Source of the DNA: a virus
Lineage: Duplodnaviria; Heunggongvirae; Uroviricota; Caudoviricetes
IMG/VR virus record: IMGVR_UViG_2563366998_000006
Strand: one strand, 5' to 3'
DNA length: 41,043 nucleotides
This document shows positions 1 to 36,641 of this stretch, one piece after another. The notes beneath the pieces were generated by a model. It did no database searches. It was not told the DNA's origin and saw only the letters and a list, made by a program, of their open reading frames with translations. The position numbers were made by a program, and so were the translations under genes. Numbering within the stretch: position 1 is the first letter of the stretch; each line of letters begins with the position of its first letter.

Positions 1-1284
1 TTACTTCTTCGCCTCTGCAACCACTTTGCTACCCACGCCGCGGTTATTGTATTCCCACATGCGGTTGTAGTTAGTGTCATTCAGATTGCGTTGTATTTCG
101 TCGTTATCATCAACGCTGCCGGTGTTACCCGCAAACGGACGATTAGAGATCACCGCATCAGCCCAGGGTTTGGCTGTGTTAAAACCTTCGTTGATGGCGC
201 TATCACGGATCACCACCTGACCGTTGGTATTGGCATCAACATCCAGCGAGCGACCCAGTTGCGCCACGCCATCACCGGAAGCATTGAAACGGCTGTTTAC
301 GGCGAGGAAACCGTAATAGATGTTAGACAGCGTAGCCGGTGCAAACACATACGCTTCTTGCTGAGTACGTGAGTTCACCACGCGGAATTCGGTGTTATCG
401 AACACCACTGCGCCGCGACCAGAAACGATATCCACATCCCCTTCAATGTAACTGTTGGTCACCAGAGTACGCGGCTGACGGTTGGTTTCCAGACGGTTTT
501 GCACACCACTGTTGGTGACAAAGAAGGTATTCTGACGACCGAGAATGTTGACGTTATTGATCTGCACTTTGTCACCATCAGTACGCAGTGCCACCGCCGG
601 ATGGTTACCCGCATCTACGCTATCGCCCAGCGTGTTTTCGATGGTCAGATTTTGCAGTTGCAGGCCATTGTTTTGTGACCAGAAGACCGCAGAGCAGAGA
701 ACACCGATACTGTCGCTGCGTTTGCTCTGGCAGCTATCGTACATATACCACGCTGGTTTACCTGGCATATATTTGCCGCGCGGGTTGACGTCGTGACGCC
801 AGTCGGCAGGGCTCATGCCCCCATCAAGGGAAAGCCCAATCTTCACATCAATCGGTTTTTCACCTGTACCGTACAGAGTAATTCCACCCGGAGCGGCAGG
901 GACATACACCGTTCCCTGATACTCACCAGGCATCACGGCAATATACTGGCGCTTGTTGGTGCGCTTGATAATTGCCGCATCTACCGCCGCCTGAATCGTG
1001 GTATGCGTTACACCTTGAGTACCCGCCGGGCCGACAACAAAGTCAGGTTGCGCAGGCAGGGTAATCGGGGAAGGATTCCACGCTGCCGCACCTGGTGTCA
1101 GGGATGCAAAATAGTGTTGAGCATCGAAATTCTGCGCTTCTTTTGCCGACAGAATCGGGCGAGAAGAGGTACCAGGCGCGGTTTGATCAGAAGGACGTTG
1201 ATCGGGCGGTGTTGAGCTACAGGCGGTCAGCGTCACGCCAAAAGCCAATGCCAGCGCCAGACGGGAAACTGAAAATGTGTTCAC
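1..1284 (-). CDS. ybhC: YbhC-like outer-membrane lipoprotein (pectinesterase-family putative acyl-CoA thioesterase); host gene bordering attB-lambda
   Basis: Complete 427-aa ORF ending at the window edge; N-terminal signal peptide with lipobox LTAC; recalled as E. coli YbhC, which flanks the lambda attachment site. Confidence 0.85.
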   Translation of the reverse strand: MNTFSVSRLALALAFGVTLTACSSTPPDQRPSDQTAPGTSSRPILSAKEAQNFDAQHYFASLTPGAAAWNPSPITLPAQPDFVVGPAGTQGVTHTTIQAAVDAAIIKRTNKRQYIAVMPGEYQGTVYVPAAPGGITLYGTGEKPIDVKIGLSLDGGMSPADWRHDVNPRGKYMPGKPAWYMYDSCQSKRSDSIGVLCSAVFWSQNNGLQLQNLTIENTLGDSVDAGNHPAVALRTDGDKVQINNVNILGRQNTFFVTNSGVQNRLETNRQPRTLVTNSYIEGDVDIVSGRGAVVFDNTEFRVVNSRTQQEAYVFAPATLSNIYYGFLAVNSRFNASGDGVAQLGRSLDVDANTNGQVVIRDSAINEGFNTAKPWADAVISNRPFAGNTGSVDDNDEIQRNLNDTNYNRMWEYNNRGVGSKVVAEAKK

Positions 1285-1330
1285 AGGTTGCTCCGGGCTA
1301 TGAAATAGAAAAATGAATCCGTTGAAGCCT

Positions 1331-1345
1331 GCTTTTTTATACTAA
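1331..1345. other. attL: Lambda-type attachment core (attL): bacterial arm on the left, phage P' arm on the right
   Basis: Exact core GCTTTTTTATACTAA at 1331-1345, followed by GTTGGCATTATAAAAAAGCATTGCTTATCAATTTGTTGCAACGAACAGGTCACTATCAGTCAAAATAAAATCATTATTTG running into the 3' end of int. Confidence 0.85.
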
Positions 1346-1418
1346 GTTGGCATTATAAAAAAGCATTGCTTATCAATTTGTTGCAACGAACAGGTCACTA
1401 TCAGTCAAAATAAAATCA

Positions 1419-2489
1419 TTATTTGATTTCAATTTTGTCCCACTCCCTGCCTCTGTCATCACGATACTGTGATGCCATGGTGTCCGACTTATGCCCGAGA
1501 AGATGTTGAGCAAACTTATCGCTTATCTGCTTCTCATAGAGTCTTGCAGACAAACTGCGCAACTCGTGAAAGGTAGGCGGATCCCCTTCGAAGGAAAGAC
1601 CTGATGCTTTTCGTGCGCGCATAAAATACCTTGATACTGTGCCGGATGAAAGCGGTTCGCGACGAGTAGATGCAATTATGGTTTCTCCGCCAAGAATCTC
1701 TTTGCATTTATCAAGTGTTTCCTTCATTGATATTCCGAGAGCATCAACATGCAATGCTGTTGGGATGGCAATTTTTACGCCTGTTTTGCTTTGCTCGACA
1801 TAAAGATATCCATCTACGATATCAGACCACTTCATTTCGCATAAATCACCAACTCGCTGCCCGGTAACAACAGCCAGTTCCATTGCAAGTCTAAGCCAAC
1901 ATGGTGATGATTCTGCTGCTTGATAAATTTTCAGGTATTCGTCAGCCGTAAGTCTTGATCTCCTTACCTCTGATTTTGCTGCGCGAGTGGCAGCGACCGG
2001 GTTTGTTGTTATATGGCCTTCAGCTATTGCCTCTCGGAATGCATCGCTCAGTGTTGATCTGATTAACTTGGCTGACGCCGCCTTGCCCTCGTCTATGTAT
2101 CCATTGAGCATTGCTGCAATTTCTTTTGTGGTGATGTCTTCAAGTGGAACATCAGGTAGCCCCCTCCTTATTGCTTTAATTTTGCTCATGTAATTTATAA
2201 GTGTCTTCTGCTTGATTCCTCTGCTGGCGAGGATTTTTTCGTAGCGATCAAGCCATGAATGTAACGTAACAGAATTATCACTGTTGATTCTCGCTGTCAG
2301 AGGCTTGTGTTTGTGTCCTGAAAATAACTCAATGTTTGCCTGTATTGCTTCAGTAATTGCTATCCTCCTGTCTCTGCCTAATCCGAACTCTTTACCCGTC
2401 CTTGGGTCCCTGTAGCAGTAATATCCATTGTTTCTTATATAAAGGTTAGGGGGTAAATCCCGGCGCTCATGACTTCGCCTTCTTCCCAT
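1419..2489 (-). CDS. int: Lambda-type tyrosine integrase Int
   Basis: 356-aa translation (MGRRRSHERRDLPPNLYIRNNGYYCYRD...) essentially identical to phage lambda Int as recalled; adjacent to attL. Confidence 0.95.
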   Translation of the reverse strand: MGRRRSHERRDLPPNLYIRNNGYYCYRDPRTGKEFGLGRDRRIAITEAIQANIELFSGHKHKPLTARINSDNSVTLHSWLDRYEKILASRGIKQKTLINYMSKIKAIRRGLPDVPLEDITTKEIAAMLNGYIDEGKAASAKLIRSTLSDAFREAIAEGHITTNPVAATRAAKSEVRRSRLTADEYLKIYQAAESSPCWLRLAMELAVVTGQRVGDLCEMKWSDIVDGYLYVEQSKTGVKIAIPTALHVDALGISMKETLDKCKEILGGETIIASTRREPLSSGTVSRYFMRARKASGLSFEGDPPTFHELRSLSARLYEKQISDKFAQHLLGHKSDTMASQYRDDRGREWDKIEIK

Positions 2490-2685
2490 TTCTGATCCTC
2501 TTCAAAAGGCTACCTGTTACTGGTCGATTTAAGTCAACCTTTACCGCTGATTCGTGGAACAGATACTCTCTTCCATCCTTAACCGGAGGAGGGAATATCC
2601 TGCATTCGCGCACCCATCGACGAACTGTTTCAAGGCTTCTTGGGCGTCGCTGGCGAGCGTTCCACTCCTGAAGTGTCAAGTACAT
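2467..2685 (-). CDS. xis: Excisionase Xis
   Basis: Internal Met of the 102-aa ORF gives the 72-aa MYLTLQEWNARQRRPRSLETVRRWVRECRIFPPPVKDGREY... matching lambda Xis; 3' end overlaps int start as in lambda. Confidence 0.9.
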   Translation of the reverse strand: MYLTLQEWNARQRRPRSLETVRRWVRECRIFPPPVKDGREYLFHESAVKVDLNRPVTGSLLKRIRNGKKAKS

Positions 2686-2799
2686 CGCAAAGTCTCCGCA
2701 ATTACACGCAAGAAAAAGCCGCATTGATGCGGCGATGGTAGGTCTGGATATCATTGAGCAATGAACAGGCCTCATCGAGTGTGAGGCTGTATGGCTCTA

Positions 2800-3144
2800 T
2801 TATTTCACCTCTTGTTGTGACATTGTTGAAAAATGGATACCAGCTCGTTGCTGCCAGATGATCCAACCGAGAGTCATATCCCATGCCATGTATTCGTTAT
2901 CGCCGTTTTTTGCTCTCCGACGATCGACTGTTTTACCGAAACGCTTTTCCATAAATAATTCATAGGCTGCGCGTTCATCTGGCTCAACTTCCAGAGATGC
3001 CAGTGCAATCCGTGCCAGTTCTAAATCATTTTCAAGCTCAGCGCGAATCTCAGCGAATGCACTCTGTGTTAAGGCGAACTCAATGCTCTGCACTTTATTC
3101 CGTGCGCGCTCAAGCAGTGCATGGTAGTTAATTTCGGTTGTCAT
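2800..3144 (-). CDS. Hypothetical early-left protein
   Basis: 114-aa ORF; ATG overlaps the stop of the upstream gene (ATGA), consistent with translational coupling; no family recognised. Confidence 0.5.
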   Translation of the reverse strand: MTTEINYHALLERARNKVQSIEFALTQSAFAEIRAELENDLELARIALASLEVEPDERAAYELFMEKRFGKTVDRRRAKNGDNEYMAWDMTLGWIIWQQRAGIHFSTMSQQEVK

Positions 3145-4019
3145 ACCCCTACCTCTTCGAATTCCAATTCCAATTGATCACCCCAGATTTCACATGACTC
3201 TGAACACGAGCCGGTATCGAATCGCCTGGCCTGTACCATCGCCTGATACAAATTTCTGTAGTCGCTGTTGGCAGACATTCTGGCAATTCCGTCAAGCGTC
3301 AGGTGACCACGGTACATAATGTCTTTACCTGTTCTGCGATGACCATCCCTGACGTGTTTGCCTGTAACCAGCTCATTAAAAACTCGCATCAGACCTGGTT
3401 CGTCTTTACATGCAAGCCCCAGCTTTTGCGTTGACTTTTTGATGCAGAAAACACAGTTCCCGAGATGCTCCGGGATTTGCAAATCAAAAGGTTGTTTTCG
3501 CCACCACCGGATAACATCCGACTTATCAAAATCTGACAGCTCGGCAAGATACCGGACGCCCGATTTCGGTTTCAGCCTACGGGGTTCGTCTGCACGAATA
3601 CCCAGCCATGTGATGTAATTACCTCGCCCGAAATGGTTATCGCAGTATTTCGTGAAAGGGATGAGTTTTAGCCTGTCAGTACAGAACGCGCCGCCGATGT
3701 ATGGCGTGCCGTACTTTTTAACCATGTCCATAAACGGTTTAAGCACCGGCATTCGTGTCTGAATATCCGTTGGCTCCCATTCTGTATAACCATTTGGCTG
3801 CCCAAGCTCAGGATTTATATCGACCTGTAACACAGTTAGTGGTATGTCCCAGAACTTCACAACCTCCCGGATAAAGCGGTATGTCAGCGGATGTTCGCAA
3901 CCGGTATCCATAAAGATGTAGCAGACGTTATTGCCAGCCTTTCTTTGTTCTTCCATCAGGTGAACAAGATATGCGGATGTTCTCCCGCCAGAAAAACTAA
4001 CTACATGAGTTATGCACAT
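3141..4019 (-). CDS. PAPS-reductase-family (PP-loop ATP pyrophosphatase-like) protein
   Basis: 292 aa; N-terminal PP-loop-like motif VVSFSGGRTSAY; family is common in lambdoid early regions. Confidence 0.75.
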   Translation of the reverse strand: MCITHVVSFSGGRTSAYLVHLMEEQRKAGNNVCYIFMDTGCEHPLTYRFIREVVKFWDIPLTVLQVDINPELGQPNGYTEWEPTDIQTRMPVLKPFMDMVKKYGTPYIGGAFCTDRLKLIPFTKYCDNHFGRGNYITWLGIRADEPRRLKPKSGVRYLAELSDFDKSDVIRWWRKQPFDLQIPEHLGNCVFCIKKSTQKLGLACKDEPGLMRVFNELVTGKHVRDGHRRTGKDIMYRGHLTLDGIARMSANSDYRNLYQAMVQARRFDTGSCSESCEIWGDQLELEFEEVGV

Positions 4020-4546
4020 TTGCGTAATTCCGATAACTCGTTGAAGCGTTCCATAAACATCCCGTAGGCATGGCCCGGTGCCAGTGGAATAACTTTGAAC
4101 ATCTCTGTTGCCGGGATACCTTCCAGTACTGGCCAGAAAGAGCCATCATCAAGCCCGAGATCGCGGCGTTCAGTTGCCAGCATGATGAGATCGGCATATT
4201 TCACGGGTGTACTCATAACTGGGGGTAACCCGTATTTCTCACGGATTACGGCGTCTATTTTTTCTTCCATCCGTTTATAGTCAGGAAGAAGGCGTTTCAG
4301 TGGCGCCGGGATGTCCTGGCAATACGCTTCTGTTGCATCATGCATTAACGCTTCAAAAGCAAATTCCTGCGGCACCAGTTGGCTGCAAAGCACCGCATGT
4401 TGGGCGACGCTGTAGAAATGTGAAAGATGTCCTGCAAAGCGACAGATATTTGAAAGGGAAACCGCGATATCGTTAATAACGATGTCGTCTTGATTTATCT
4501 TGTCATAATAAAAATGCTTCCCGGAAAAAGTTTTAATAAATGACAT
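4010..4546 (-). CDS. HD-domain phosphohydrolase (YfdR/YfbR-like 5'-deoxynucleotidase family)
   Basis: Start placed at the internal ATG (MSFIKTF...) preceded by GGAGA; 178 aa; H...HD motif (AQHAV...LMHDATEAY). Confidence 0.7.
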   Translation of the reverse strand: MSFIKTFSGKHFYYDKINQDDIVINDIAVSLSNICRFAGHLSHFYSVAQHAVLCSQLVPQEFAFEALMHDATEAYCQDIPAPLKRLLPDYKRMEEKIDAVIREKYGLPPVMSTPVKYADLIMLATERRDLGLDDGSFWPVLEGIPATEMFKVIPLAPGHAYGMFMERFNELSELRKCA

Positions 4547-4673
4547 TTTGTTCTCCACGTATATGCGCTGCACCGCGCTGAATTCTGGTAAAAGGAAGTC
4601 CTCACCATCCGGCGATTATTGAGTTAATTACGTTTCCATAAATTCCCCCGCAGGGGCATTTGCAGTAATGAAA

Positions 4674-5498
4674 TCAGGCGGTGAAAGTACCAATAAAGGT
4701 TTCTACTTTGCTGTCTTTGAATTTCTCAACAAGCAGATCACGAAATTCGTTAGCCATTTCTTCCTGCACCGCTTCCAGCTGAATAATGCGCAGAACCAGT
4801 ACAGGACGATCGCCAGTGATAATGCTGAGGCGTAATTTAAATGGACGTTCTTTCAGGCCTTCAAACGGAACGCATTTAAATTCAAATGCCACTGGCATAA
4901 TGTCTTTGGTCTTCGCTTCGACAGACTCCATCAGGGAGCGTTTGCCGCTGAAGTCATTATCTTCAAAATCAGCGGTCTGGTTCGCTTCAATTGTGATTTT
5001 ACGGATAGCCGCCGCCGCTTTGGTTGCCTGAATGGCGTCACCATTAGCATCAAAGCCCACAAGGTAGTCGGCCCAGTCTTCAATCCATTCTGCCAGTGAT
5101 TTCTGGGAGTTACGCTCGCCATTAACAGACAACAGAGCAGAGAACGGTGCTGTCTTTTTCAGTTTGAGAGTGGCGGTGTTATCTGCGTGACCTGGTTCAT
5201 CAATAGTACCCAGGTTAAGCACACTGACGGCACGCATATTATCAGCATCGATAAAGCAGCGGGTGCCTTCATCTGCAAGATCTTTAGAATAACGGGTAAA
5301 GTCATCGATGCTGGCAGTGGAAAGCGCACCACGGAAACGGAAGCGATTTAAATTAAATTTTTCCAGATCATGAATGCGGAAATTCTCAGGCAATGCCACA
5401 GCATCGGCACCAATCTTACTGATAATTTCATTAACACCCTGAGCAGAAATAAGGGCATGGATTTGATTAAATGCGGTTGCGTCTAAGTTTTGAGACAT
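4674..5498 (-). CDS. YfdQ-like (DUF2303-type) prophage protein
   Basis: 274-aa [23 protein letters not shown]...; recalled similarity to CPS-53 prophage YfdQ. Confidence 0.65.
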
Positions 5499-5563
5499 AA
5501 TAAGTCCTCACTATATTAAGATATTCAGTGATGAGATAAATAATCGGTTAATTAAGAACGATA

Positions 5564-5926
5564 TTAATGACCTGCTGCGCGGAGTTTTCCGTCAGGTTCA
5601 CCGGCAAGAGTCAGTAATTGTCCCTGGTCTTCCTGCAGAATAGTCAGGCGACCACCGCGATTGACATACATCGGCGTTTCGGTGGTGTCTTCTTCGGAAA
5701 TTTTCCCGCGGTTAGTCGGGCGAACATATGAGAGTTTGTGTTTGATTTTCACACGGTTTTCATCAAATGGTTCGATTTCCAGGTTGAGTGAGACCTTACC
5801 TTTGGTTTTCGTGTTCATCACACCGGAAGCGACTTCACTGAGAACTGCGCCGATTTTGGTTTCAAATACGCCGCCGTCCAGCTCCCCGATAAATGCCTGC
5901 ACATCAGTACTGCGTTCGCTAGCCAT
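5564..5926 (-). CDS. YfdP-like hypothetical prophage protein
   Basis: Start at the internal ATG (MASERSTDVQAF...) preceded by GAGGAG; 120 aa; the upstream in-frame extension is Arg/Cys/Pro-rich and looks non-coding. Confidence 0.6.
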   Translation of the reverse strand: MASERSTDVQAFIGELDGGVFETKIGAVLSEVASGVMNTKTKGKVSLNLEIEPFDENRVKIKHKLSYVRPTNRGKISEEDTTETPMYVNRGGRLTILQEDQGQLLTLAGEPDGKLRAAGH

Positions 5927-5974
5927 TTTGCTGCTCCTCATCATATCGACCCTGCAAGGTCGGTTAGTTTCTCC

Positions 5975-6063
5975 ACAAAACAGAGAAGAACACCTGCGGT
6001 GACTGCCGCCCGGATGGATTGGGTTATGAGCCCGTCGTCCGGTGATGCTCTTCTCTGTTTTGT
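5975..6063. repeat. Perfect 15-bp inverted repeat (ACAAAACAGAGAAGA / TCTTCTCTGTTTTGT) enclosing a 59-nt GC-rich loop; part of a structured non-coding block
   Basis: Arms at 5975-5989 and 6049-6063 are exact reverse complements; a further 9-bp inverted repeat CGGTACCAG/CTGGTACCG lies at 6072-6108. Confidence 0.6.
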
Positions 6064-6327
6064 AAAAAGGACGGTACCAGCCGGAAGCAAGGGTACAAAC
6101 TGGTACCGCCAGGACTACACACAGCATAAAGTTGTGGTGCCGGGTGCCTCCCGGTGCCTGGCGAAGGTTGCACACCAGGCGGGTGGGTATCCACAGAAGG
6201 TCGACTGTCAGCCTCAACCTTAACCCGCGTGCGCTGAGCCGCATTCACCACAACGCTAAGGATTCTCTCTGGTTGAAAATACTTAGCTGTTATGTGCCTG
6301 CTTTTAGCCACATCAGGCGAGGTGGAC

Positions 6328-6379
6328 CTGGTTATTCCCCAACAACAAGGATTCGGTTAATCTGGTTATCCCCAACAAC
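6328..6379. repeat. Direct repeats CTGGTTAT(T)CCCCAACAAC x2 upstream of the orphan plus-strand gene (putative regulator-binding sites)
   Basis: Copies at 6328-6346 and 6362-6379, ending 16 bp before the ATG at 6395. Confidence 0.5.
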
Positions 6380-6394
6380 GCAAAAGGAAAAGAA

Positions 6395-6829
6395 ATGTCC
6401 GGTAATATCTATACGCTGTACAAATCCCACTGTGAAAATGTTGGAAAGTATCGGGGCATTGAAATCAGTGGGGTAGTGTCATCAGTCGAAATAAGCAAAG
6501 TTGAATCAAGGGCAACATTACTTACTCTTCTGGACCTTGTCTTAAATGAGCACCGGAAGAAATTCGGCACACCCTATAATCAGTTGAATGGGAAAAAGGC
6601 TCTGGTTCACCTTATTCTGATGAAGCATCACTGGATGCCAAAACAGATTAATGAGATGAAATTTGATGAACTTCTTCTTTCAATTCAGGATGAACTCACG
6701 CTTGATAAAATAAGTGTAACCGCCCAGAAATTTTTAGATTATCGAGACTGGAGATCACAAATTCATCACTTTGATGATTTTGACGAAAATGAATGGGATC
6801 CTAATTTGTCTGCACAATATCTAAAGTAA
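6395..6829 (+). CDS. Hypothetical AT-rich orphan protein (accessory gene antisense to the early-left operon)
   Basis: 144-aa ORF with AAGGA RBS 7 nt upstream; visibly AT-rich compared with its neighbours; acidic C-terminus; no family recognised. Confidence 0.5.
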   Translation: MSGNIYTLYKSHCENVGKYRGIEISGVVSSVEISKVESRATLLTLLDLVLNEHRKKFGTPYNQLNGKKALVHLILMKHHWMPKQINEMKFDELLLSIQDELTLDKISVTAQKFLDYRDWRSQIHHFDDFDENEWDPNLSAQYLK

Positions 6830-7007
6830 CATCCTGTGATAAAACCGTGATTTCCTGATCCAGTTTTTTTAAGGAGTCTATTGTTTCCTGTCGATAAGAC
6901 AGCACTTCACGAAGCTGGTTTATAGCTGCCAGCTTCTTTGTCATCCACTCATAAATTTCCTCATCTGTGTAGCCAGGCGCGACGATTTTTGGTTCTGTTT
7001 TGTGCAT
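6801..7007 (-). CDS. Hypothetical small protein, first ORF of the leftward early operon
   Basis: 68 aa from the internal ATG (MHKTEPKIV...) with strong RBS GAGGAGG; 3' end overlaps the 6395-6829 gene convergently. Confidence 0.45.
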   Translation of the reverse strand: MHKTEPKIVAPGYTDEEIYEWMTKKLAAINQLREVLSYRQETIDSLKKLDQEITVLSQDVTLDIVQTN

Positions 7008-7067
7008 TTCACACCTCCTCAAGTTATCAGTTACTTGTTGATGGGGACCAGATTGTTAAAGAGCGAA

Positions 7068-7090
7068 GCGTCCTATAGGGCGCTTTTTTT
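7068..7090 (+). terminator. Intrinsic terminator-like hairpin plus T7 run
   Basis: GCGTCC-TATA-GGGCGC stem-loop (one G-U pair) followed by TTTTTTT on the plus strand. Confidence 0.5.
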
Positions 7091-7263
7091 GTTGCTAACG
7101 AATCATCCGGTCATTCATACGCCACCGGCGGCTACTTCGTGGGCGTCCTGCCTGTTCGTTTTTGACATTTACTGACCTCTTACGACACATGCACCGTGCA
7201 CCGTGTTGCAACCAGATTTTGTTGTAATCCTGTAGTTGGTCTGGAACAAAAGATAAAATTAAA

Positions 7264-7300
7264 TTGCGAGATATGCAAGTAATATTTGCGAAATATGCAA
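7264..7300. promoter_or_regulatory. OL-type operator pair (15-bp sites TTGCGAGATATGCAA and TTGCGAAATATGCAA), presumed pL region
   Basis: Two near-identical 15-bp imperfect palindromes at 7264-7278 and 7286-7300, sharing the TTGCG...GCAA pattern with the sites between cI and cro. Confidence 0.6.
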
Positions 7301-7310
7301 AACGGTGGGT

Positions 7311-7334
7311 AATAAAAAGCCACCTTTCGGTGGC
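7311..7334 (-). terminator. Intrinsic terminator downstream of cI
   Basis: On the minus strand: GCCACC-GAAA-GGTGGC hairpin followed by TTTTTATT, 20 bp after the cI stop. Confidence 0.55.
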
Positions 7335-7354
7335 CGATGGATGGGATATTGAGG

Positions 7355-8047
7355 TTAATTATGTCTCTTAAGGGTTTGCGACTGACTGATTAAGACCTTT
7401 CCAAAGACCATAAATCGGTGTTCGTTTTCGCTAGTAATTCCCCATTCACGGTAAATCTGGTTATCAGAAATCACCAGCAGTTTGTCAGGAATCATTTGAA
7501 GTCTTTTAACGTATATTTTGTCATCAAAACCAAAGACATATATACCATCACCATCAAACTGATTGATGCTGACATCAACGAAGATGAGATCTCCTGGCTC
7601 AATGGTTGGACACATACTGTCCCCACGAACGTTGATAACTTTGATGTGATTGGCTGGTCGTCCGCCGAACATTGATACAGCATTATCAGTTCTGTATTCG
7701 ATGGCATGAATCACATCAATGACATCACCGCCCTGGATAAGGCCATTTCCCGCACTGGCACTGATATCCAGCATTTCAATACGGAACACATCCTTCACCT
7801 GCGCAACATCCTCATTATTACTGTTTTTATATACAGTATTACTTTTGAGGGCAGAGGTAAAGAGATCAGCAATATCAACACCTAAGCTCTTGGCAATATT
7901 ACTCAGTGTTTGTTCGGTAAATTGTTTTTGCTTACCCGTTTCTAAGCGCGAGATGTTCGCCGCATCTACTCCTATTGCTTCAGCGAGATCGGCGATTTTC
8001 ATGTTCTTCGCTTGGCGAAGTTGTCTGACTCGGTTTCCTATGTTCAT
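7355..8047 (-). CDS. cI: CI-type prophage repressor (N-terminal HTH, C-terminal S24 LexA-like peptidase domain)
   Basis: 230 aa; HTH segment IADLAEAIGVDAANISRLETGK; C-terminal S24-like region (VRGDSMCPTIEPGDLIFVD ... KRL); divergent from cro across an operator-rich intergenic region. Confidence 0.85.
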   Translation of the reverse strand: MNIGNRVRQLRQAKNMKIADLAEAIGVDAANISRLETGKQKQFTEQTLSNIAKSLGVDIADLFTSALKSNTVYKNSNNEDVAQVKDVFRIEMLDISASAGNGLIQGGDVIDVIHAIEYRTDNAVSMFGGRPANHIKVINVRGDSMCPTIEPGDLIFVDVSINQFDGDGIYVFGFDDKIYVKRLQMIPDKLLVISDNQIYREWGITSENEHRFMVFGKVLISQSQTLKRHN

Positions 8048-8067
8048 GCGTTTATTACATTTCTTTA

Positions 8068-8130
8068 TTGCGTGATAAGCAAATCAACTTGCGCAAAATA
8101 ATTGCGTGAAATAACATGCATAACGCGCAA
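8068..8130. promoter_or_regulatory. OR-type operator cluster between cI and cro (presumed pRM/pR region)
   Basis: TTGCGTGATAAGCAA (8068-8082), TTGCGCAA (8089-8096), TTGCGTGAAATAACA (8102-8116) and reverse-orientation TTGCGCGTTATGCAT (8116-8130). Confidence 0.6.
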
Positions 8131-8144
8131 TATTTGGAGGGTAT

Positions 8145-8405
8145 ATGCAATCACCATTACGAAATGTGCGTAAGGCGCATGGTTTCACTTTGCAGCATGT
8201 TGCTGCGGGTGTTCAAGTCAATCCAGCGACGTTGAGTCGTATTGAGAGGCTGGAGCAGATTCCATCTATCGAACTTGCAGAACGTTTAGCCAATTTTTTT
8301 AAGGGTGAAGTCAGCGAAATGCAGATTCTTTATCCGGCACGTTTTCAATCTAGCCAAAACCAGAATGGGTTTAAACCACAGGAACAGGAGGTAAGCCGTG
8401 GGTAA
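8145..8405 (+). CDS. cro: Cro-like HTH regulator
   Basis: 86 aa, divergent from cI; HTH-like segment FTLQHVAAGVQVNPATLSRIER; GGAGG RBS. Confidence 0.75.
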   Translation: MQSPLRNVRKAHGFTLQHVAAGVQVNPATLSRIERLEQIPSIELAERLANFFKGEVSEMQILYPARFQSSQNQNGFKPQEQEVSRG

Positions 8406-18677: not shown

Positions 18678-18819
18678 AACGCCCCAGCCAGTCATTCCCG
18701 ACCCGCTGACCTATGGGGCCAGTCTGGATCTGAATGTGAGCCTGCTTTCGGCGCTGGGCCAGTGCAACATCGACAAGGCCAGTATCAGGAAGATAGAAAC
18801 GTCACGCAACTCACAGTAG
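18562..18819 (+). CDS. Rz1-like outer-membrane lipoprotein spanin (overlapped, not fully embedded)
   Basis: +1 frame within and beyond Rz; MMIVLQVMCLLPLLTGC has a lipobox; Pro-rich mature region; start could also be the ATG at 18565 or 18583. Confidence 0.5.
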   Translation: MMIVLQVMCLLPLLTGCGSTRTVYVPVPAVPLPTSLTTETPQPVIPDPLTYGASLDLNVSLLSALGQCNIDKASIRKIETSRNSQ

Positions 18820-18858
18820 CCATTACAAAGCTCATCTGCGGGTGGGCTTTGTAATGGC
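18819..18858. terminator. Stem-loop between convergent genes (13-bp perfect stem), possible bidirectional terminator
   Basis: GCCATTACAAAGC (18819-18831) and GCTTTGTAATGGC (18846-18858) with a 14-nt loop, starting at the Rz1 stop codon. Confidence 0.4.
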
Positions 18859-19164
18859 TTATTCGTAGTTGTCACCAGGGAAGTATTCCTGAAACTTTGA
18901 TTTTGGGAGCTGGGTTTTCGCGAAGTTCGCAAGCCTTCCTCTTGTAAGCATGTAGTCACACCCACCTTCTTGTTTGAGAAGGTCACCAGCTAATGTCCGA
19001 TACACAACGTCACTTCGCAAAATTTCAATGGTGGAATTCCTGATGAGAAATGTTTCACACATCGGGCATCTAATTAACCAAGCGGTATCACGGTTCTGCC
19101 AGGTCGCATCTGAATTGCAAGCCGGGCAGCATTTCTGATCTTCTTGTCCTATGACCATTGTCAT
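18859..19164 (-). CDS. Hypothetical zinc-ribbon protein on the opposite strand
   Basis: 101-aa ORF with CPACN...CPMC motif; sits between the lysis cassette and the HNH gene; true start may be the second ATG at 19158 (GAGAG RBS). Confidence 0.45.
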   Translation of the reverse strand: MTMVIGQEDQKCCPACNSDATWQNRDTAWLIRCPMCETFLIRNSTIEILRSDVVYRTLAGDLLKQEGGCDYMLTRGRLANFAKTQLPKSKFQEYFPGDNYE

Positions 19165-19237
19165 GCTCTCGCATAGTGAAGGAATTTTCAGATTAACTCA
19201 TTTTCAGACGCATCGTAATGGCTTAAGGAAACAATTA

Positions 19238-19588
19238 ATGCCACCACGTACACCAAAAGCCTGCCGCGTTCGCGGTTGCCGCCATACCACAACTGACCCG
19301 TCAGGCTATTGCGAAAGCCACAAAAGCGAAGGCTGGAAGCAATACAAACCAGGCCTGTCACGTCATCAGCGCGGTTACGGTTCGAAGTGGGATACCATCC
19401 GTGAACGTGTGCTGAAGCGTGACAAAGGCCTGTGTCAGTTATGTCTGCGTTCTGGTGTGGTGCGTGAGGCGAAAACCGTTGACCACATCATCCCTAAAGC
19501 GCATGGCGGCACTGATGCTGACAGTAATCTGCAGAGTCTGTGCTGGCCGTGCCATAAGGCGAAGACGGCCCGTGAACGGTTAAAGTGA
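19238..19588 (+). CDS. HNH endonuclease (terminase-associated)
   Basis: 116 aa from the ATG at 19238 (AAGGA RBS); CRVRGCRHTT...CQLC...VDHIIPKAHGGTD...NLQSLCWPCH HNH/zinc-finger motifs. Confidence 0.85.
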   Translation: MPPRTPKACRVRGCRHTTTDPSGYCESHKSEGWKQYKPGLSRHQRGYGSKWDTIRERVLKRDKGLCQLCLRSGVVREAKTVDHIIPKAHGGTDADSNLQSLCWPCHKAKTARERLK

Positions 19589-19614
19589 TAATAATTCTCA
19601 ACTGTCTGAGGGGA

Positions 19615-19677
19615 GGGGCGGGTCAAATCCCTGTGACCTGACGTCTTCCGGACTGCCCGCCCCATCGTTTTTTTATA
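19615..19677 (+). other. GC-rich 8-bp inverted repeat (GGGGCGGG/CCCGCCCC) followed by a T7 run; terminator-like or cos-proximal element
   Basis: Arms at 19615-19622 and 19656-19663 followed by TTTTTTT at 19669-19675, between the HNH and small terminase genes. Confidence 0.35.
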
Positions 19678-19713
19678 CCCGCGAAAAATGAAATTTAACC
19701 AGGAGTGCCGCAT

Positions 19714-20208
19714 ATGGCTGGAACGGCGGGGCGTTCCGGGCGTCGCCCCAAGCCAACGGCGCGCAAGGCGCTGGCCGGAAACCCCGGCAAGCGAGCCCTG
19801 AATAAAGATGAACCTGTTTTTACGCCCATCAAAGGTGTTGAGCCACCGGAGTGGTTCGCTGAAGAAGATCTCCCTCTCGCTACGATCATGTGGCAACTGA
19901 CAACTAAAGAACTCTGCGGTCAGGGCCTGCTGTGCGTGACTGACCTCGCGGTGCTTGAGCGGTGGTGCGTGGCCTACGAGTTCTGGCGACGTGCCGTGAA
20001 AAATATTGCCAGACAGGGCAACACCATCACCGGTGCAATGGGCGGTATGGTCAAAAATCCGGAGCTGACCGCCAAAAAAGAACAGGAGTCCGAGATGAGC
20101 AGTACGGGGGCAATGCTCGGACTCGACCCCAGCAGCCGCCAGCGTCTGATTGGCCTGGCGGGGCAGAAGAAAACCACTAACCCGTTTCTGAAAATCATCG
20201 AATCATGA
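19714..20208 (+). CDS. Terminase small subunit
   Basis: 164 aa from the ATG at 19714 (AGGAG RBS 8 nt upstream); [14 protein letters not shown]... directly upstream of the large terminase with overlapping stop/start. Confidence 0.8.
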
Positions 20209-21938
20209 GCCGGAAATCTTACCCCAACGTAAATGCTGCCAATCAGTATGCCCGGGATGTCGTGCGCGGAAAGATTGTGGCCTGCCAGTTTGTGATTCAG
20301 GCCTGCCAGCGCCATCTTGATGACCTGATGGAGGAAAAAAGTAAGTCGTTTCGTTACCGCTTCGACAAGGACCTGGCTGAACGGGCCGCGAAATTTATTC
20401 AGCTGTTGCCGCACACCAAGGGTGAGTGGGCATTCAAACGGATGCCCATCACGCTGGAGCCGTGGCAGCTATTTGTGATCTGCTGTGCGTTTGGCTGGGT
20501 CAATAAAGGCACCCGGTTGCGCCGCTTCCGGGAGGTGTATACCGAAATCCCCCGTAAGAACGGCAAATCAGCAATCTCTGCCGGTGTCGCCCTGTATTGT
20601 TTTGCCTGTGATAACGAGTTCGGCGCGGAAGTGTATTCCGGTGCCACGACAGAGAAACAGGCATGGGAAGTCTTTCGTCCGGCAAGACTGATGTGTAAAC
20701 GCACACCCATGCTGACGGAAGCGTTCGGGATTGAGGTTAACGCCTCAAACATGAACCGTCCGGAGGATGGTGCGCGTTTTGAACCGCTGATCGGTAACCC
20801 CGGTGATGGTTCATCACCCCACTGTGCGGTGGTGGATGAATATCACGAGCACGCCACAGATGCGCTTTACACCACGATGCTTACCGGGATGGGGGCGCGA
20901 CGTCAGCCACTGATGTGGGCTATCACTACCGCCGGGTACAACATTGAGGGGCCGTGCTACGACAAACGGCGGGAAGTCATCGAGATGCTCAACGGCTCGG
21001 TGCCTAACGATGAACTGTTCGGGATCATCTATACCGTTGATGAAGGTGACGACTGGACCGACCCGCAGGTGCTGGAAAAAGCCAATCCAAATATTGGCGT
21101 GTCGGTTTATCGCGAATTTTTGTTAAGTCAGCAGCAGCGTGCGAAAAATAACGCCCGTCTGGCAAACGTCTTTAAAACAAAACACCTCAATATCTGGGTG
21201 TCGGCGCGTTCGGCGTATTTCAACCTGGTGAGCTGGCAGAGCTGCGAGGATAAATCACTGTCCCTTGAGCAGTTCGAGGGGCAGCCGTGCATTCTGGCCT
21301 TTGACCTGGCGCGTAAACTGGATATGAACAGCATGGCGCGACTTTATACCCGCGAGATTGACGGTAAAACGCATTACTACAGTGTAGCCCCGCGTTTCTG
21401 GGTACCGTATGACACGGTGTACAGCGTCGAGAAAAATGAAGATCGACGGACAGCCGAACGCTTTCAGAAATGGGTGGAAATGGGCGTTCTGACCGTTACC
21501 GATGGTGCGGAGGTGGATTATCGCTACATCCTCGAGGAGGCCAAAGCGGCGAACAAAATCAGCCCGGTCAGTGAGTCACCCATCGACCCCTTCGGGGCGA
21601 CCGGGTTGTCACATGACCTTGCTGATGAAGACCTGAACCCCATCACTATCATTCAGAACTACACCAACATGTCCGACCCGATGAAAGAGCTGGAAGCGGC
21701 AATTGAATCGGGGCGCTTTCATCATGACGGCAATCCCATCATGACCTGGTGTATCGGCAACGTGGTCGGCAAAACCATTCCGGGTAACGATGATGTGGTG
21801 AAACCCGTCAAAGAGCAGGCGGAAAACAAAATCGATGGTGCAGTTGCGCTGATTATGGCGGTTGGCAGAGCCATGCTGTACGAGAAAGAAGACACGCTGT
21901 CTGACCACATTGAGTCCTACGGGATCCGCTCGCTTTAA
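20205..21938 (+). CDS. Terminase large subunit
   Basis: 577 aa; size, position and ATPase/nuclease layout typical of HK97-type TerL. Confidence 0.9.
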
Positions 21939-21949
21939 CTGAGGTAATT

Positions 21950-22132
21950 ATGATCATGCTGATTCTCGCGCCTCTGGTGGGCGTGCTGGGTGCGCTTTTG
22001 CTGGCATATGGTGCCTGGCTGATTTATCCCCCGGCGGGTTTTGTTGTTGCCGGGGCGCTGTGCCTGTTCTGGTCGTGGCTGGTGGCGCGATATCTCGATC
22101 GTACACAGCTGTCTGTCGGCGGAGGTAAATAG
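21950..22132 (+). CDS. Small hydrophobic protein
   Basis: 60-aa ORF with two hydrophobic segments between TerL and portal. Confidence 0.4.
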
Positions 22133-23373
22133 TGTTCTTTTCGGGATTATTTCAACGAAAAAGTGACGCACCGGTGACCACGCCAGCAGAGCTGGCGGAT
22201 GCCATCGGGTTGTCCTACGACACCTATACCGGAAAGCAGATCAGCAGCCAGCGGGCCATGCGACTGACGGCGGTTTTTTCCTGTGTCAGGGTGCTGGCGG
22301 AGTCGGTCGGGATGTTGCCCTGCAACCTGTATCACCTGAACGGCAGCCTGAAGCAGAGAGCCACCGACGAACGTCTGCATAAGCTGATCTCCACGCATCC
22401 CAATGGCTATATGACGCCGCAGGAGTTCTGGGAGCTGGTGGTCACCTGTCTGTGCCTGCGGGGAAACTTTTACGCCTACAAAGTGAAAGCATTTGGCGAA
22501 GTGGCTGAACTGCTGCCCGTCGATCCCGGCTGTGTGGTACCGAAGCTTAACAGTAGCTGGGAGCCGGTCTATCAGGTCACATTCCCGGATGGCTCCACGG
22601 ATGTACTGAGCCAGGAGGATATCTGGCATGTGCGCACGCTGACGCTGGACGGTCTGGTGGGACTGAATCCCGTCGCCTATGCCCGTGAGGCAATATCGCT
22701 GGCAGCTGCGACCGAAGAGCACGGGGCCGGACTGTTCAGCAATGGCGCGGTGACGTCGGGTGTGTTGCGTACAGAACAGACGCTGTCGGATCAGGCTTAT
22801 GAGCGCCTGAAGAAAGATTTTGAGGAGCGTCACACCGGGCTTGGTAATGCTCACCGCCCGATGATCCTTGAGATGGGGCTGGACTGGAAGTCGATGGCGC
22901 TGAACGCCGAGGACAGCCAGTTCCTGGAAACCCGCAAGTTTCAGCTTGAAGAAATCTGTCGTCTGTTCCGGGTGCCGTTGCACATGGTGCAGAACACCGA
23001 TCGCGCCACCTTCAACAATATCGAAGAGCTGGGGCTGGGATTTATCAACTATTCACTGGTGCCGTATCTGACCCGCATCGAACAGCGGATCAACACCGGA
23101 CTGGTACGAAAAAGTAAGCAGGGCGTTTATTACGCCAAATTTAACGCCGGGGCGTTACTGCGCGGGGATATGAAGTCCCGTTTTGAAGCCTACGCCACCG
23201 GGATCAACTGGGGAATTTACTCTCCCAATGACTGCCGCGATCTGGAAGATATGAATCCGCGTCCCGGTGGTGATGTCTATCTCACACCGATGAACATGAC
23301 CACGAAACCCTCCGATGGCAGTAAAGCCGGTAAGCAGAAGGATAACGCCAATGCAGACGAAACAACGTCTTGA
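22132..23373 (+). CDS. Portal protein (HK97 family)
   Basis: 413 aa, immediately after the terminase; typical size and position. Confidence 0.85.
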   Translation: MFFSGLFQRKSDAPVTTPAELADAIGLSYDTYTGKQISSQRAMRLTAVFSCVRVLAESVGMLPCNLYHLNGSLKQRATDERLHKLISTHPNGYMTPQEFWELVVTCLCLRGNFYAYKVKAFGEVAELLPVDPGCVVPKLNSSWEPVYQVTFPDGSTDVLSQEDIWHVRTLTLDGLVGLNPVAYAREAISLAAATEEHGAGLFSNGAVTSGVLRTEQTLSDQAYERLKKDFEERHTGLGNAHRPMILEMGLDWKSMALNAEDSQFLETRKFQLEEICRLFRVPLHMVQNTDRATFNNIEELGLGFINYSLVPYLTRIEQRINTGLVRKSKQGVYYAKFNAGALLRGDMKSRFEAYATGINWGIYSPNDCRDLEDMNPRPGGDVYLTPMNMTTKPSDGSKAGKQKDNANADETTS

Positions 23374-24001
23374 TGTACCGCTGAGTCTGAAGTCTATCAG
23401 TGACTCCGGTGAGTTTGAAGGGTATGGCTCCGTCTTTGGTGTAAAGGACAGCCACGATGATGTGGTGATGTCCGGGGCATTTGCCGCCTCCCTGCGGGCG
23501 TGGAGTGACAGAAAAGCGTTACCTGCGCTGCTCTGGCAGCACCGCATGGATGAGCCCATCGGTGTTTACACCGAAATGAAGGAAGACGATGTCGGGCTTT
23601 ACGTCAGGGGGCGGTTGCTCATTGATGATGATCCCCTGGCAAAACGCGCACATGCACACATGAAGGCCGGTTCGTTAACCGGCCTTTCTATTGGGTACGT
23701 CCTGAAAGACTGGGAATACGACCGGACGAAAGAAGCCTTTCTGCTAAAAGAAATCGACCTCTGGGAAGTCAGTCTGGTGACGTTCCCGTCTAACGACGAG
23801 GCACGGATCAGCGACGTCAAGAACGCGCTGGCCCGCGGGGAAATCCCCGAACAGAAAAAAATCGAAAGAGTCCTGCGTGATGTCGGACTCTCCCGTACCC
23901 AGGCCAAAGCATTCATGGCCGGGGGCTATAGCGCACTGTCCCTGCGCGACGCTGAGGATGTGAGCTCTGCACTGAATGCACTGAAAAATCTGAACTTCTA
24001 A
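23351..24001 (+). CDS. Prohead protease (HK97 family)
   Basis: 216 aa from the ATG at 23351; lies between portal and major capsid; GYGSVFGVKDSHDDVV motif region. Confidence 0.8.
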   Translation: MQTKQRLDVPLSLKSISDSGEFEGYGSVFGVKDSHDDVVMSGAFAASLRAWSDRKALPALLWQHRMDEPIGVYTEMKEDDVGLYVRGRLLIDDDPLAKRAHAHMKAGSLTGLSIGYVLKDWEYDRTKEAFLLKEIDLWEVSLVTFPSNDEARISDVKNALARGEIPEQKKIERVLRDVGLSRTQAKAFMAGGYSALSLRDAEDVSSALNALKNLNF

Positions 24002-24015
24002 TCAGGAGAAATACG

Positions 24016-25221: not shown

Positions 25222-25228
25222 TCACTCA

Positions 25229-25257
25229 GGGGCGCGGAACCGCGCCCCTGTTCTGAC
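25229..25257 (+). terminator. Strong GC stem-loop immediately after the capsid gene (terminator/mRNA stabiliser)
   Basis: GGGGCGCGG-AA-CCGCGCCCC perfect 9-bp stem followed by TGTTCTG. Confidence 0.5.
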
Positions 25258-25269
25258 GGGTGAAGAATC

Positions 25270-25470
25270 ATGATCCTGAAACAAGATCTGAAATGGTCAC
25301 CGGACGGTATGCGTGTTGAGGTCATTCGGGCCGGTGAGTATGACGACGGGGCGCTTCCTGCCCGGGTGCAGGAGATTGCACTTCAGGCTGGGTTAGCAGA
25401 GCGCGGAATCAGTACAAAAAGCAGTAAAGCGGCAAAAGAGAAAAAAGCCACGACCAGTAAAGAGGGCTGA
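25270..25470 (+). CDS. Hypothetical small head-region protein
   Basis: 66-aa ORF between capsid and connector genes. Confidence 0.4.
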   Translation: MILKQDLKWSPDGMRVEVIRAGEYDDGALPARVQEIALQAGLAERGISTKSSKAAKEKKATTSKEG

Positions 25471-25472
25471 GT

Positions 25473-25796
25473 ATGCTTCTGACAATGGAAGAGATTAAAG
25501 CCCAACTCCGGCTGGATGAGGATTTCGATGCTGATGACCGCCATCTGCAACTGCTGGCCTGTGCGGCGCAAAAGCGGACGGAAACGTATCTGAACCGGAA
25601 GCTCTATGCACCGGATGAAACCATTCCGGACAGCGATCCGGACGGGCTGCACCTGCCGGATGATATTCGTCTGGGGATGCTGATGCTTATCAGCCATTTT
25701 TACGAAAACCGCTCGTCGGTTACGGAAGTGGAGAAACTCGACATGCCGCAGAGTTTTGGCTGGCTTGTCGGCCCGTACAGGTACTTTCCGCAATGA
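25473..25796 (+). CDS. Head-tail connector (gp6-like)
   Basis: 107 aa; position and size typical. Confidence 0.7.
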   Translation: MLLTMEEIKAQLRLDEDFDADDRHLQLLACAAQKRTETYLNRKLYAPDETIPDSDPDGLHLPDDIRLGMLMLISHFYENRSSVTEVEKLDMPQSFGWLVGPYRYFPQ

Positions 25797-27241: not shown

Positions 27242-27249
27242 GGATCCTC

Positions 27250-31568: not shown

Positions 31569-31592
31569 TGCAGTCCTTTTTGAGGTCAGTCT

Positions 31593-36638: not shown

Positions 36639-36641
36639 TTC

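What the first reader, a model, noticed from the sequence alone, without database searches (positions are those of the whole stretch)
1321..2685. Lambda attachment site and int/xis used by a phage that is otherwise not lambda
The att core with its P' arm, Int and Xis are lambda-identical by eye, and the R endolysin is nearly lambda-identical, yet head genes are HK97-type, the tail is Mu-like contractile, and the right end carries gtrABC. That makes this a module-swapped mosaic occupying the classical ybhC-side attB-lambda. It implies immunity-independent competition with lambda for the same integration site.
Basis: partly seen in the sequence, partly recalled or inferred. Interest (0 to 1): 0.4.

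Follow-up and report, generated by a model that had tools for sequence, protein, structure and literature searches.

The report
Lambda-type integration module in SfV-like prophage
This is an ordinary mosaic prophage: a Shigella SfIV/SfV-like O-antigen-converting phage carrying the lambda/HK97-type integrase, excisionase and attachment site, sitting in the classical lambda site of E. coli, a site filled by lambda-type integrase prophages in about a third of complete E. coli genomes.

Summary
Window 1331-1345 is the exact 15-bp lambda core and 1346-1418 is a P' arm identical to lambda. Int (1419-2489, minus strand) matches lambda at 353/356 residues and Xis (2467-2685, minus strand) at 71/72. 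ybhC lies directly to the left, so this is attL of a prophage at attB-lambda.

The module is nearer to HK97 than to lambda (99.2% against 97.9% nt; Int 355/356, Xis 72/72). attR is outside the window. It is present, next to ybhB, in a prophage identical to the window apart from an IS5, one mismatch and one gap. attL-left plus attR-right rebuilds an empty attB at 415/415.

The rest of the prophage is SfIV/SfII/SfI/SfV-like: about 29 of 39.7 kb align to SfIV, mostly at 89-97% nt. It has an HK97-family head, a Mu-like contractile tail and gtrABC beside att. The lambda-type module replaces the thrW-type int/xis/attP of the Shigella phages.

The endolysin R is only 87% aa (82% nt) identical to lambda R, so "nearly identical" was overstated.

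None of this is new. HK97 and 434 records already annotate a lambda-type att. 1919 of 5426 complete E. coli genomes carry this attL junction and 91 carry gtrA next to attR. A gtr prophage between ybhB and ybhC was reported for E. coli O44 in 2007. Interest is low.

The parts
1..1284 (-). ybhC, the host gene on the gal side of attB-lambda
   Evidence: RefSeq annotation of the identical stretch in NZ_CP071073.1. Identical to the ybhC flank of an unoccupied site.
1285..1330 (+). Bacterial B arm of attL (ybhC-att intergenic DNA)
   Evidence: Identical to the sequence left of the core in the empty attB of strain RM14516.
1331..1345 (+). 15-bp common core GCTTTTTTATACTAA, the crossover region
   Evidence: Exact, single match in the window. 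15/15 to lambda and HK97. A second copy lies at attR in L001 40188-40202.
1346..1422 (+). P' arm. The arm-type Int sites P'1-P'3 lie at 1392-1422, and the IHF H' region lies between the core and P'1.
   Evidence: 1346-1418 is 73/73 identical to lambda and HK97. Site names are placed by register with lambda from my own knowledge of the published footprints.
1419..2489 (-). int, a lambda/HK97-type tyrosine integrase of 356 aa
   Evidence: 353/356 to lambda Int and 355/356 to HK97 Int, with the six catalytic positions checked identical to lambda. The exact protein is on at least 1000 contigs.
2467..2685 (-). xis, an excisionase of 72 aa
   Evidence: 72/72 to HK97 Xis and 71/72 to lambda Xis.
2698..2711 (-). 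TTGC-N6-TTGC box of the lambda pI promoter (lambda CII site), just upstream of the xis start
   Evidence: Read directly from the sequence. 2686-2787 is 102/102 identical to HK97. Its function here is inferred, because the backbone has no lambda-type CII.
2711..2733 (-). Intrinsic terminator hairpin plus T run upstream of xis on the leftward transcript
   Evidence: Terminator scan hit at 2733-2718(-). The HK97 and 434 records annotate a terminator under this match.
2738..2787 (.). Right-hand junction of the module: about 50 bp shared by HK97, SfIV and this prophage, within which the crossover lies
   Evidence: The HK97 match ends at 2787 and the SfIV match starts at 2738.
2788..13632 (.). SfIV-like early region. 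It holds a NinC-like PAPS-reductase gene, yfdR/Q/P-like genes, a cI-like repressor 7355-8047(-), cro 8145-8405, a CP76 (186-type) CII-family gene 8398-8949, replication genes, RusA, KilA-N, DUF968 and Q 13261-13632.
   Evidence: Annotation of the identical prophage. Aligned blocks are 90-97% nt identical to SfIV. Pfam hits.
17495..37979 (+). Lysis cassette, HK97-family packaging and head genes, and a Mu-like contractile tail and baseplate. This is the SfIV-like late region.
   Evidence: 96.6% nt identical to SfIV over 17.3 kb. Pfam hits. R is 87% aa identical to lambda R.
38281..41043 (-). O-antigen glucosylation operon: gtrA (40681-41043), gtrB (39755-40684) and a type-specific Gtr (38281-39768). 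It lies next to attR, just beyond the window end.
   Evidence: Pfam GtrA_DPMS_TM, Glycos_transf_2 and Glucos_trans_II. In L001 gtrA is followed by the sib/P arm, the core and ybhB.

Best explanation
Window 1285-2787 is the attL end of a prophage integrated by lambda-type site-specific recombination into the classical attB-lambda between ybhC and ybhB. The prophage backbone is an SfIV/SfV-like serotype-converting myovirus. Its usual integration module (thrW-type in the Shigella phages) has been replaced by a lambda/HK97-type cassette of about 1.7 kb. In the circular form that cassette reads sib/tI, P arm, core, P' arm, int, xis, pI, terminator. The exchange happened at short stretches shared between the phage types: window 2738-2787 on the xis side and about L001 39933 just upstream of gtrA. 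The mechanism is inferred from near-identity to the characterised lambda/HK97 system. Int bridges the arm-type sites (P1, P2, P'1-3) and the core sites with IHF to recombine attP with attB. For excision, Xis (sites X1/X1.5/X2), Fis and IHF help Int recombine attL with attR. Shown here: the sequences, the precise insertion, intact Int and Xis, conserved binding sites, and both junctions. Inferred: that the module is still active in this phage, and how int and xis are expressed in a backbone that lacks lambda CII and N.
For: Identity of core, P' arm, Int and Xis. ybhC and ybhB flank the element. attR with the same core is at L001 40188-40202. attL-left plus attR-right matches an empty attB at 415/415. 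The P arm keeps P1, H1, P2 and X1 with 0 differences from lambda, and the IHF core of H2 is retained; changes cluster between X1.5 and the core and mostly match HK97. The tI/sib hairpin is conserved and folds. The backbone is SfIV-like: 29,014 of 39,713 prophage bases align, mostly at 89-97%. The same gtr-att-int-xis order occurs in SfIV. The same backbone carries an e14/icd-type integrase in phage vB_EcoM-689R6, so integrase swapping recurs in this lineage. The junctions are mapped. The gtrA-attR-ybhB junction is in 91 complete genomes.
Against: No excised attP form linking the gtrA side to int was found in IMG/VR or JGI metagenome contigs, and no deposited phage genome spans either junction. 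Activity of this hybrid is therefore unproven. The lambda pI CII box is kept, but the backbone encodes a CP76 (186-type) CII-family protein and no lambda CII or N homologue. An intrinsic terminator also sits just upstream of xis. Expression of int and xis may therefore be impaired or wired differently. The X2/Fis region differs from lambda at 3 of 13 positions, one of them not shared with HK97.
Confidence: 0.9

Rival explanations
1. The element is a fixed, defective prophage. The lambda-type module is intact in sequence but can no longer excise the element or give viable phage, so it is only a scar of a past integration.
For: No attP form or isolated phage with these junctions was found. PGAP flags several pseudogenes in the identical prophage: a frameshifted ORF, a partial DUF2570 gene, a partial stfP and a tail-fibre-assembly fragment. 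There is a regulatory mismatch: a lambda pI/CII box with a 186-type CII, and a terminator before xis.
Against: Int, Xis, both att sites and all arm-type sites are intact. The head, tail, lysis and terminase ORFs are full length and co-linear with the isolated phage SfIV. The prophage is near-identical in strains from several countries and hosts, and the same cassette sits on different backbones, which suggests recent mobility.
Confidence: 0.2
2. Two elements lie in tandem at attB-lambda: a lambda/HK97-like remnant supplying att-int-xis, and a separate SfV-like prophage beside it.
For: Tandem lysogeny at attB-lambda is well known (my own knowledge), and the site is very often occupied.
Against: Only two cores exist, at the two ends of the element. 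No second integrase or hybrid att lies inside it. The lambda-type block ends within 50 bp of where SfIV homology starts, exactly where SfIV has its own xis/int/attP. The gtrA-to-P-arm junction is equally tight.
Confidence: 0.03
3. The resemblance is an assembly chimera or a chance similarity.
For: None beyond the general possibility.
Against: The block is 1.4 kb at 98-99% identity. The same attL junction is in 1919 complete genomes and the gtrA-attR junction is in 91.
Confidence: 0.01

Closest known systems
Phage HK97 att-int-xis module (NC_002167 21035-22686)
   Same: 99.2% nt identity over window 1331-2787. Int 355/356, Xis 72/72. Core and P' arm identical. P arm 121/135. The terminator upstream of xis is the same. 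HK97 is itself a non-lambda phage whose record annotates 'attachment site core; identical to lambda att site core'.
   Different: The sib-distal end of the P-arm side (L001 39933-39991) matches lambda, not HK97. HK97 is a siphovirus with lambda-like tail genes and a lambda-type N/cII early region. The two share no other DNA except R at 84%.
Phage lambda att-int-xis (J02459 27470-29126)
   Same: Core and P' arm identical. Int 353/356, Xis 71/72. P1, H1, P2 and X1 identical. Same integration site between ybhC and ybhB. pI CII box and tI/sib retained.
   Different: The P arm from X1.5 to the core is diverged (112/135 overall). Upstream of xis the similarity stops at 2733. The rest of the genome is unrelated except a NinC-like gene (79% aa), R (87% aa), a tfa fragment and a 58-aa stretch of O.
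Shigella flexneri serotype-converting phages SfIV, SfII, SfI and SfV
   Same: About 73% of the prophage aligns to SfIV, mostly at 89-97% nt. Same gene order, HK97-family head, Mu-like contractile tail, and gtrABC immediately beside attP followed by int and xis.
   Different: The integration module is lambda/HK97-type instead of the Sf-type 387-aa integrase. From my own knowledge of the literature, the Sf phages insert at tRNA-thrW. gtrA/gtrB are only 80-86% identical, and the type-specific Gtr has no close relative in any phage record (best 27% aa). There is an extra defence moron between Q and the holin.
E. coli O44 gtrA-gtrB-wbbG prophage between ybhB and ybhC (Wang et al. 2007, Microbiology 153:2159, as described in PMC10304059)
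   Same: An O-antigen glucosylation operon carried by a putative prophage at the lambda insertion site of E. coli.
   Different: I could not read the 2007 paper or its sequence. Whether that prophage has the same backbone or the same type-specific transferase is unknown, and no source names the 495-aa protein here WbbG.
e14-type relative, phage vB_EcoM-689R6 (ON470584)
   Same: Same SfV-like late and early regions at about 97% nt.
   Different: It carries an e14-type excisionase and integrase next to icd, and an invertase instead of gtr. It is a third integration module on the same backbone.

Membership tests
Lambda-type Int/Xis/att site-specific recombination module | Tyrosine recombinase with the RKHRHY catalytic set and lambda's N-terminal arm-binding domain | tested here: met
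   353/356 identical to lambda Int. R212, K235, H308, R311, H333 and Y342 are present. The three substitutions (positions 114, 164, 248) lie outside the first 64 residues.
Lambda-type Int/Xis/att site-specific recombination module | 15-bp common core identical in the phage and bacterial sites, duplicated at both prophage ends | tested here: met
   Core at window 1331-1345 and at L001 40188-40202. attR was seen in a prophage matching the window except for an IS5, one mismatch and one gap, not in the window itself.
Lambda-type Int/Xis/att site-specific recombination module | Arm-type Int sites P1, P2 and P'1-3, and IHF sites H1, H2 and H' | tested here: met
   P' arm 73/73 identical. P1, H1 and P2 have 0 differences. 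H2 keeps the ATTGATA core with HK97-like flanks. Site definitions are from my own knowledge of the published footprints.
Lambda-type Int/Xis/att site-specific recombination module | Xis protein and its X1/X1.5/X2 sites with the overlapping Fis site | tested here: inconclusive
   Xis is 72/72 to HK97. X1 is identical. X1.5 and X2 each differ from lambda at 3 positions (1 each from HK97), and the Fis region differs at 4 of 14. Binding was not testable.
Lambda-type Int/Xis/att site-specific recombination module | Integration at attB-lambda between ybhC and ybhB (gal-bio) | tested here: met
   Flanking genes. The rebuilt site matches an empty site at 415/415.
Lambda-type Int/Xis/att site-specific recombination module | Demonstrated integration and excision activity | not testable with these tools
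   No excised attP form was found in IMG/VR or metagenome contigs, but that search needed exact matches and is weak evidence.
Lambdavirus (phage lambda proper) | Genome-wide nucleotide similarity to lambda; lambda head, tail, N, cI, cII, O/P and Q modules | tested here: not met
   Only 1331-2733, 3187-4006 (inverted, 74%), 17843-18276 (82%) and 37818-37952 (75%) match lambda by blastn. tblastx adds only a 58-aa stretch of O.
SfV/SfIV-like serotype-converting phages | HK97-family head plus Mu-like contractile tail, with high nucleotide similarity to SfIV/SfII/SfI/SfV | tested here: met
   29,014 of 39,713 bases align to SfIV, including 17.3 kb at 96.6%. Pfam hits.
SfV/SfIV-like serotype-converting phages | gtrA-gtrB-gtr(type) operon directly beside attP, followed by int and xis | tested here: met
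   gtrA start, about 90 bp, sib/P arm, core (L001), then core, int, xis (window). SfIV has the same order.
SfV/SfIV-like serotype-converting phages | Sf-type integrase with integration at tRNA-thrW | tested here: not met
   No similarity to the SfIV int/xis/attP stretch between SfIV positions 23118 and 24586. Integration is at attB-lambda. The thrW target of the Sf phages is from my own knowledge of the literature.

The most novel reading that the evidence does not exclude
The unit that moves may be larger than int/xis/att. A portable cassette of gtrA-gtrB plus sib, lambda-type attP, int and xis would be shuffled as one piece between unrelated virion backbones, with only the type-specific gtr gene exchanged. 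The gtrA-to-P-arm stretch (including the junction) is about 99% identical in SfV-like myovirus prophages and in prophages with a P22-type tailspike, all at attB-lambda. The cassette would work even though its built-in lambda controls (the pI CII box, and sib/N-dependent retroregulation) are orphaned in a backbone with a 186-type CII and no N. That would imply an unknown way of supplying Int and Xis.
Probability: 0.35. Interest if true: 0.3.

Novelty: already known. Interest (0 to 1): 0.1.

Why it matters
It matters little as a discovery. Exchange of integration modules among lambdoid and SfV-like phages is textbook mosaicism, and the lambda/HK97 int-att allele is among the commonest integration modules in E. 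coli. It has practical value for annotation. attB-lambda in wild E. coli is usually occupied by something that is not lambda, so 'lambda integrase' hits should not be read as lambda prophages. In this lineage the occupant carries an uncharacterised O-antigen glucosylation specificity and a defence system based on a nucleoid-associated protein. Those are more likely than the integration module to affect phage susceptibility and serotyping.

Tried and rejected
(1) I searched for an excised attP form of this phage: the gtrA-upstream sequence, a 255-270 nt gap, then core plus P'. There were no hits in IMG/VR or JGI metagenome contigs.

(2) A shorter attP pattern (the last 24 nt of this P-arm variant, then core and P') hit one 9.5-kb IMG/VR contig (L007). 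That contig shares only the att-int-xis block with this prophage and has different flanks. The att allele therefore also occurs in attP form on another phage, but this says nothing about activity here.

(3) No deposited phage genome covers at least 80% of either junction query.

(4) PADLOC gave no hit for the two defence-moron proteins. NCBIfam did.

(5) The literature search for 'same attachment site' led to the mEpimmI paper (PMC11893012), which concerns other integration sites and is not relevant. The E. coli W genome paper only lists lambda-like prophages at ybhC-ybhB in strains B and Crooks.

(6) I tried to link the 495-aa Gtr to the published WbbG of O44 through cluster names. No source uses that name, so this stays unresolved.

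(7) The tandem-prophage, chimera and chance explanations were considered and rejected (see rivals).

Full report
**1. What is at 1321-2685**

The sequence shows ybhC ending at 1284 on the minus strand, as annotated in an identical RefSeq stretch. After it come the exact 15-bp lambda core GCTTTTTTATACTAA at 1331-1345, the P' arm, a 356-codon ORF at 1419-2489(-) and a 72-codon ORF at 2467-2685(-). The core is the only match in the window even at two mismatches, with 0.05 expected by chance.

Megablast against 50,697 phage records returns 57 records. HK97 is best at 99.1%, and lambda, 434, HK629/630, HK106 and others follow at 97.5-98.7%. Local blastn gives 97.9% identity to lambda over 1331-2733 and 99.2% to HK97 over 1331-2787.

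Part by part:
- Core: 15/15 to both phages.
- P' arm: 73/73 to both phages.
- int: 1052/1071 nt to lambda and 1059/1071 to HK97.
- Int protein: 353/356 (lambda) and 355/356 (HK97). R212, K235, H308, R311, H333 and Y342 are all present.
- Xis: 71/72 (lambda) and 72/72 (HK97).

The allele is the HK97 variant of the lambda-type module.

**2. It is attL of a precisely inserted prophage**

The window ends at the gtrA start codon, so attR is not in it. Thirteen complete E. coli genomes listed match window 1-25000 at 100% apart from an insertion sequence.

In one of them (NZ_CP071073.1, locus L001) the prophage continues from gtrA for about 340 bp to a second copy of the core at L001 40188-40202. After that come CTTGAGCGAAACGGG, then ybhB, then bioA. 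Apart from the insertion, the window and L001 differ by one mismatch and one gap. The left side of attL joined to the right side of attR equals the unoccupied ybhC-ybhB site of strain RM14516 at 415 of 415 positions.

**3. The P arm and sib**

The 135 nt from P1 to the core are 112/135 identical to lambda and 121/135 to HK97. Lambda and HK97 are themselves 112/135 identical. P1, H1, P2 and X1 have no changes. Differences cluster between X1.5 and the core and are mostly the HK97 variants. X2 has one extra change, and the IHF core of H2 is retained. Site sequences come from my own knowledge of the published footprints and were used only as landmarks.

Further out, the tI/sib hairpin is kept with a one-base loop insertion and still folds. 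The most distal about 60 bp (L001 39933-39991) resemble lambda rather than HK97. The P-arm side is thus its own variant of a known, functional design.

**4. The rest of the element is not lambda**

By blastn the window matches lambda at only three further places:
- a NinC-like PAPS-reductase gene at 74%, in inverted orientation;
- R at 82%;
- a tfa fragment at 75%.

tblastx adds only 58 aa of O. There is no lambda N, cI, cII, Q, head or tail. R is 138/158 aa identical to lambda R. The holin, although of the 'lambda holin family' by NCBIfam, is about 22% identical to S. 'Nearly lambda-identical R' is therefore overstated.

**5. What the backbone is**

Megablast of the late and early regions finds the Shigella flexneri serotype-converting phages SfIV, SfII, SfI and SfV, plus E. 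coli relatives, at 95-97%. Against SfIV, 29,014 of the 39,713 prophage bases in the window align, including 17.3 kb of head and tail genes at 96.6%.

Pfam confirms three things:
- an HK97-family head: S78 protease and PF05065 capsid, 26% identical to HK97 gp5 over a 170-residue local alignment;
- a Mu-like contractile tail: sheath, tube, DNA_circ_N, GpP, Gp45 and Baseplate_J;
- GtrA, GtrB and a GtrII-family transferase.

SfIV has the same order: gtr(type), gtrB, gtrA, attP, int, xis.

**6. The swap and its junctions**

SfIV homology runs up to L001 39964 upstream of gtrA and resumes at window 2738. Lambda-type homology runs from L001 39933 to window 2733 (lambda) or 2787 (HK97). On the xis side, HK97, SfIV and the prophage share about 50 bp (2738-2787), inside which the crossover must lie. 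On the gtr side the switch is at about L001 39933, where SfIV and lambda sib sequences are weakly similar. So a cassette of about 1.7 kb replaces the Sf-type int/xis/attP.

The same backbone carries an e14/icd-type integrase in phage vB_EcoM-689R6. Exchange of the integration module therefore recurs in this lineage.

**7. How common it is**

- 1919 of 5426 complete E. coli genomes (35%) have the ybhC, core, P', int junction at 80% coverage or more.
- 91 have gtrA, P arm, core, ybhB.
- 23 have at least 80% of window 1-25000.
- The exact Int, Gtr and defence proteins are each on at least 1000 contigs.

The identical GtrA occurs next to the same P arm (about 99% identical across the gtrA-to-core stretch, including the junction) in prophages with different type-specific Gtr proteins (488, 491 and 495 aa). 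It occurs both in SfV-like prophages and in prophages bearing a P22-type tailspike, all beside ybhB.

No deposited phage genome spans either junction, and I found no excised attP form.

**8. Prior knowledge**

HK97's record annotates its att core as identical to lambda's, and the 434 records annotate an attP core under the same match. A paper on O-antigens states that in E. coli O44 the gtrA, gtrB and wbbG genes lie in a putative prophage between ybhB and ybhC, the normal lambda site. It cites Wang et al. 2007, Microbiology 153:2159 (PMC10304059). The E. coli W genome paper lists lambda-like prophages at ybhC-ybhB in strains B and Crooks. The phenomenon, and a gtr prophage at this site, are already known.

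**9. Mechanism and open points**

Given the near-identity to the characterised lambda/HK97 system, the module most likely works as in lambda. Integration is Int plus IHF acting on attP and attB. Excision is Int, Xis, Fis and IHF acting on attL and attR. sib is separated from int in the prophage state.

What is not shown is expression. The lambda pI CII box (TTGC-N6-TTGC, 2698-2711, minus strand) is retained. However, the gene in the cII position (8398-8949) belongs to Pfam Phage_CP76, the 186-type CII family. No lambda CII or N homologue exists in the window. An intrinsic terminator lies immediately upstream of xis. A boxA-like CGCTCTTTAACAA sits in the presumed pL leader. Whether Int and Xis supply depends on other promoters or on antitermination is unknown.

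Classical genetics (my own knowledge) shows tandem lysogeny through attL and attR of a resident prophage with the same specificity.

**10. Verdict**

This is a real, correctly located feature with a mostly correct reading, but it is ordinary. Novelty: already known. Interest: 0.1.

Noticed in passing
window 13612-17203 (minus strand), with IS5 at 15835-17029: A two-gene anti-phage moron lies between Q and the holin on the opposite strand. NCBIfam names the genes DS1_2_antiphage (13612-14826, 404 aa, no Pfam domain) and DS1_1, a nucleoid-associated (YejK/NA37-like) anti-phage protein. In this window the DS1_1 gene is split by a 1195-bp IS5 with a CTAA target duplication. None of 5426 complete E. 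coli genomes has this insertion junction. YejK-domain defence systems were validated only recently (PMC13092281; preprint 10.64898/2026.04.06.716658). PADLOC 2023 does not recognise either protein.
   Followed up: partly
window 38281-39768 (minus strand): The type-specific glucosyltransferase (495 aa, Pfam GtrII) has no close relative in any deposited phage genome (best tblastn identity 27%). Yet the exact protein is on at least 1000 contigs. Its O-antigen specificity appears uncharacterised. Sister prophages at the same site carry other alleles of 485-491 aa.
   Followed up: partly
window 2698-2733, 7051-7063 and 8398-8949: There is a regulatory mismatch inside the mosaic. The lambda pI CII box and a terminator upstream of xis travel with the module, while the backbone has a Phage_CP76 (186-type) CII-family gene and no lambda CII or N homologue. 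A boxA-like CGCTCTTTAACAA lies in the presumed pL leader.
   Followed up: partly
L008-L017 (attR side of attB-lambda in other genomes), e.g. L011 3631-8363: The same gtrA and gtrA-to-P-arm stretch (about 99% identical) occurs next to ybhB in prophages with a P22-type tailspike (Head_binding plus beta-helix) as well as in SfV-like ones. The identical GtrA also occurs beside a different integrase (L013) and in a P2-like prophage (L014).
   Followed up: partly
window 3141-4019 (minus strand): A PAPS-reductase-family gene is 79% aa identical to lambda NinC (Nin 290). Here it sits in the leftward early operon next to xis, inverted relative to its place in lambda's nin region. It gives weak PADLOC hits to SspD, BrxP and DndC models.
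   Followed up: no
L007 (IMGVR_UViG_2648501797_000001) 3033-4628: A 9.5-kb viral contig carries an attP form whose last 24 nt of P arm, core and first 11 nt of P' are identical to this prophage's variant, but with unrelated flanks. The att allele therefore circulates on other phages too.
   Followed up: partly
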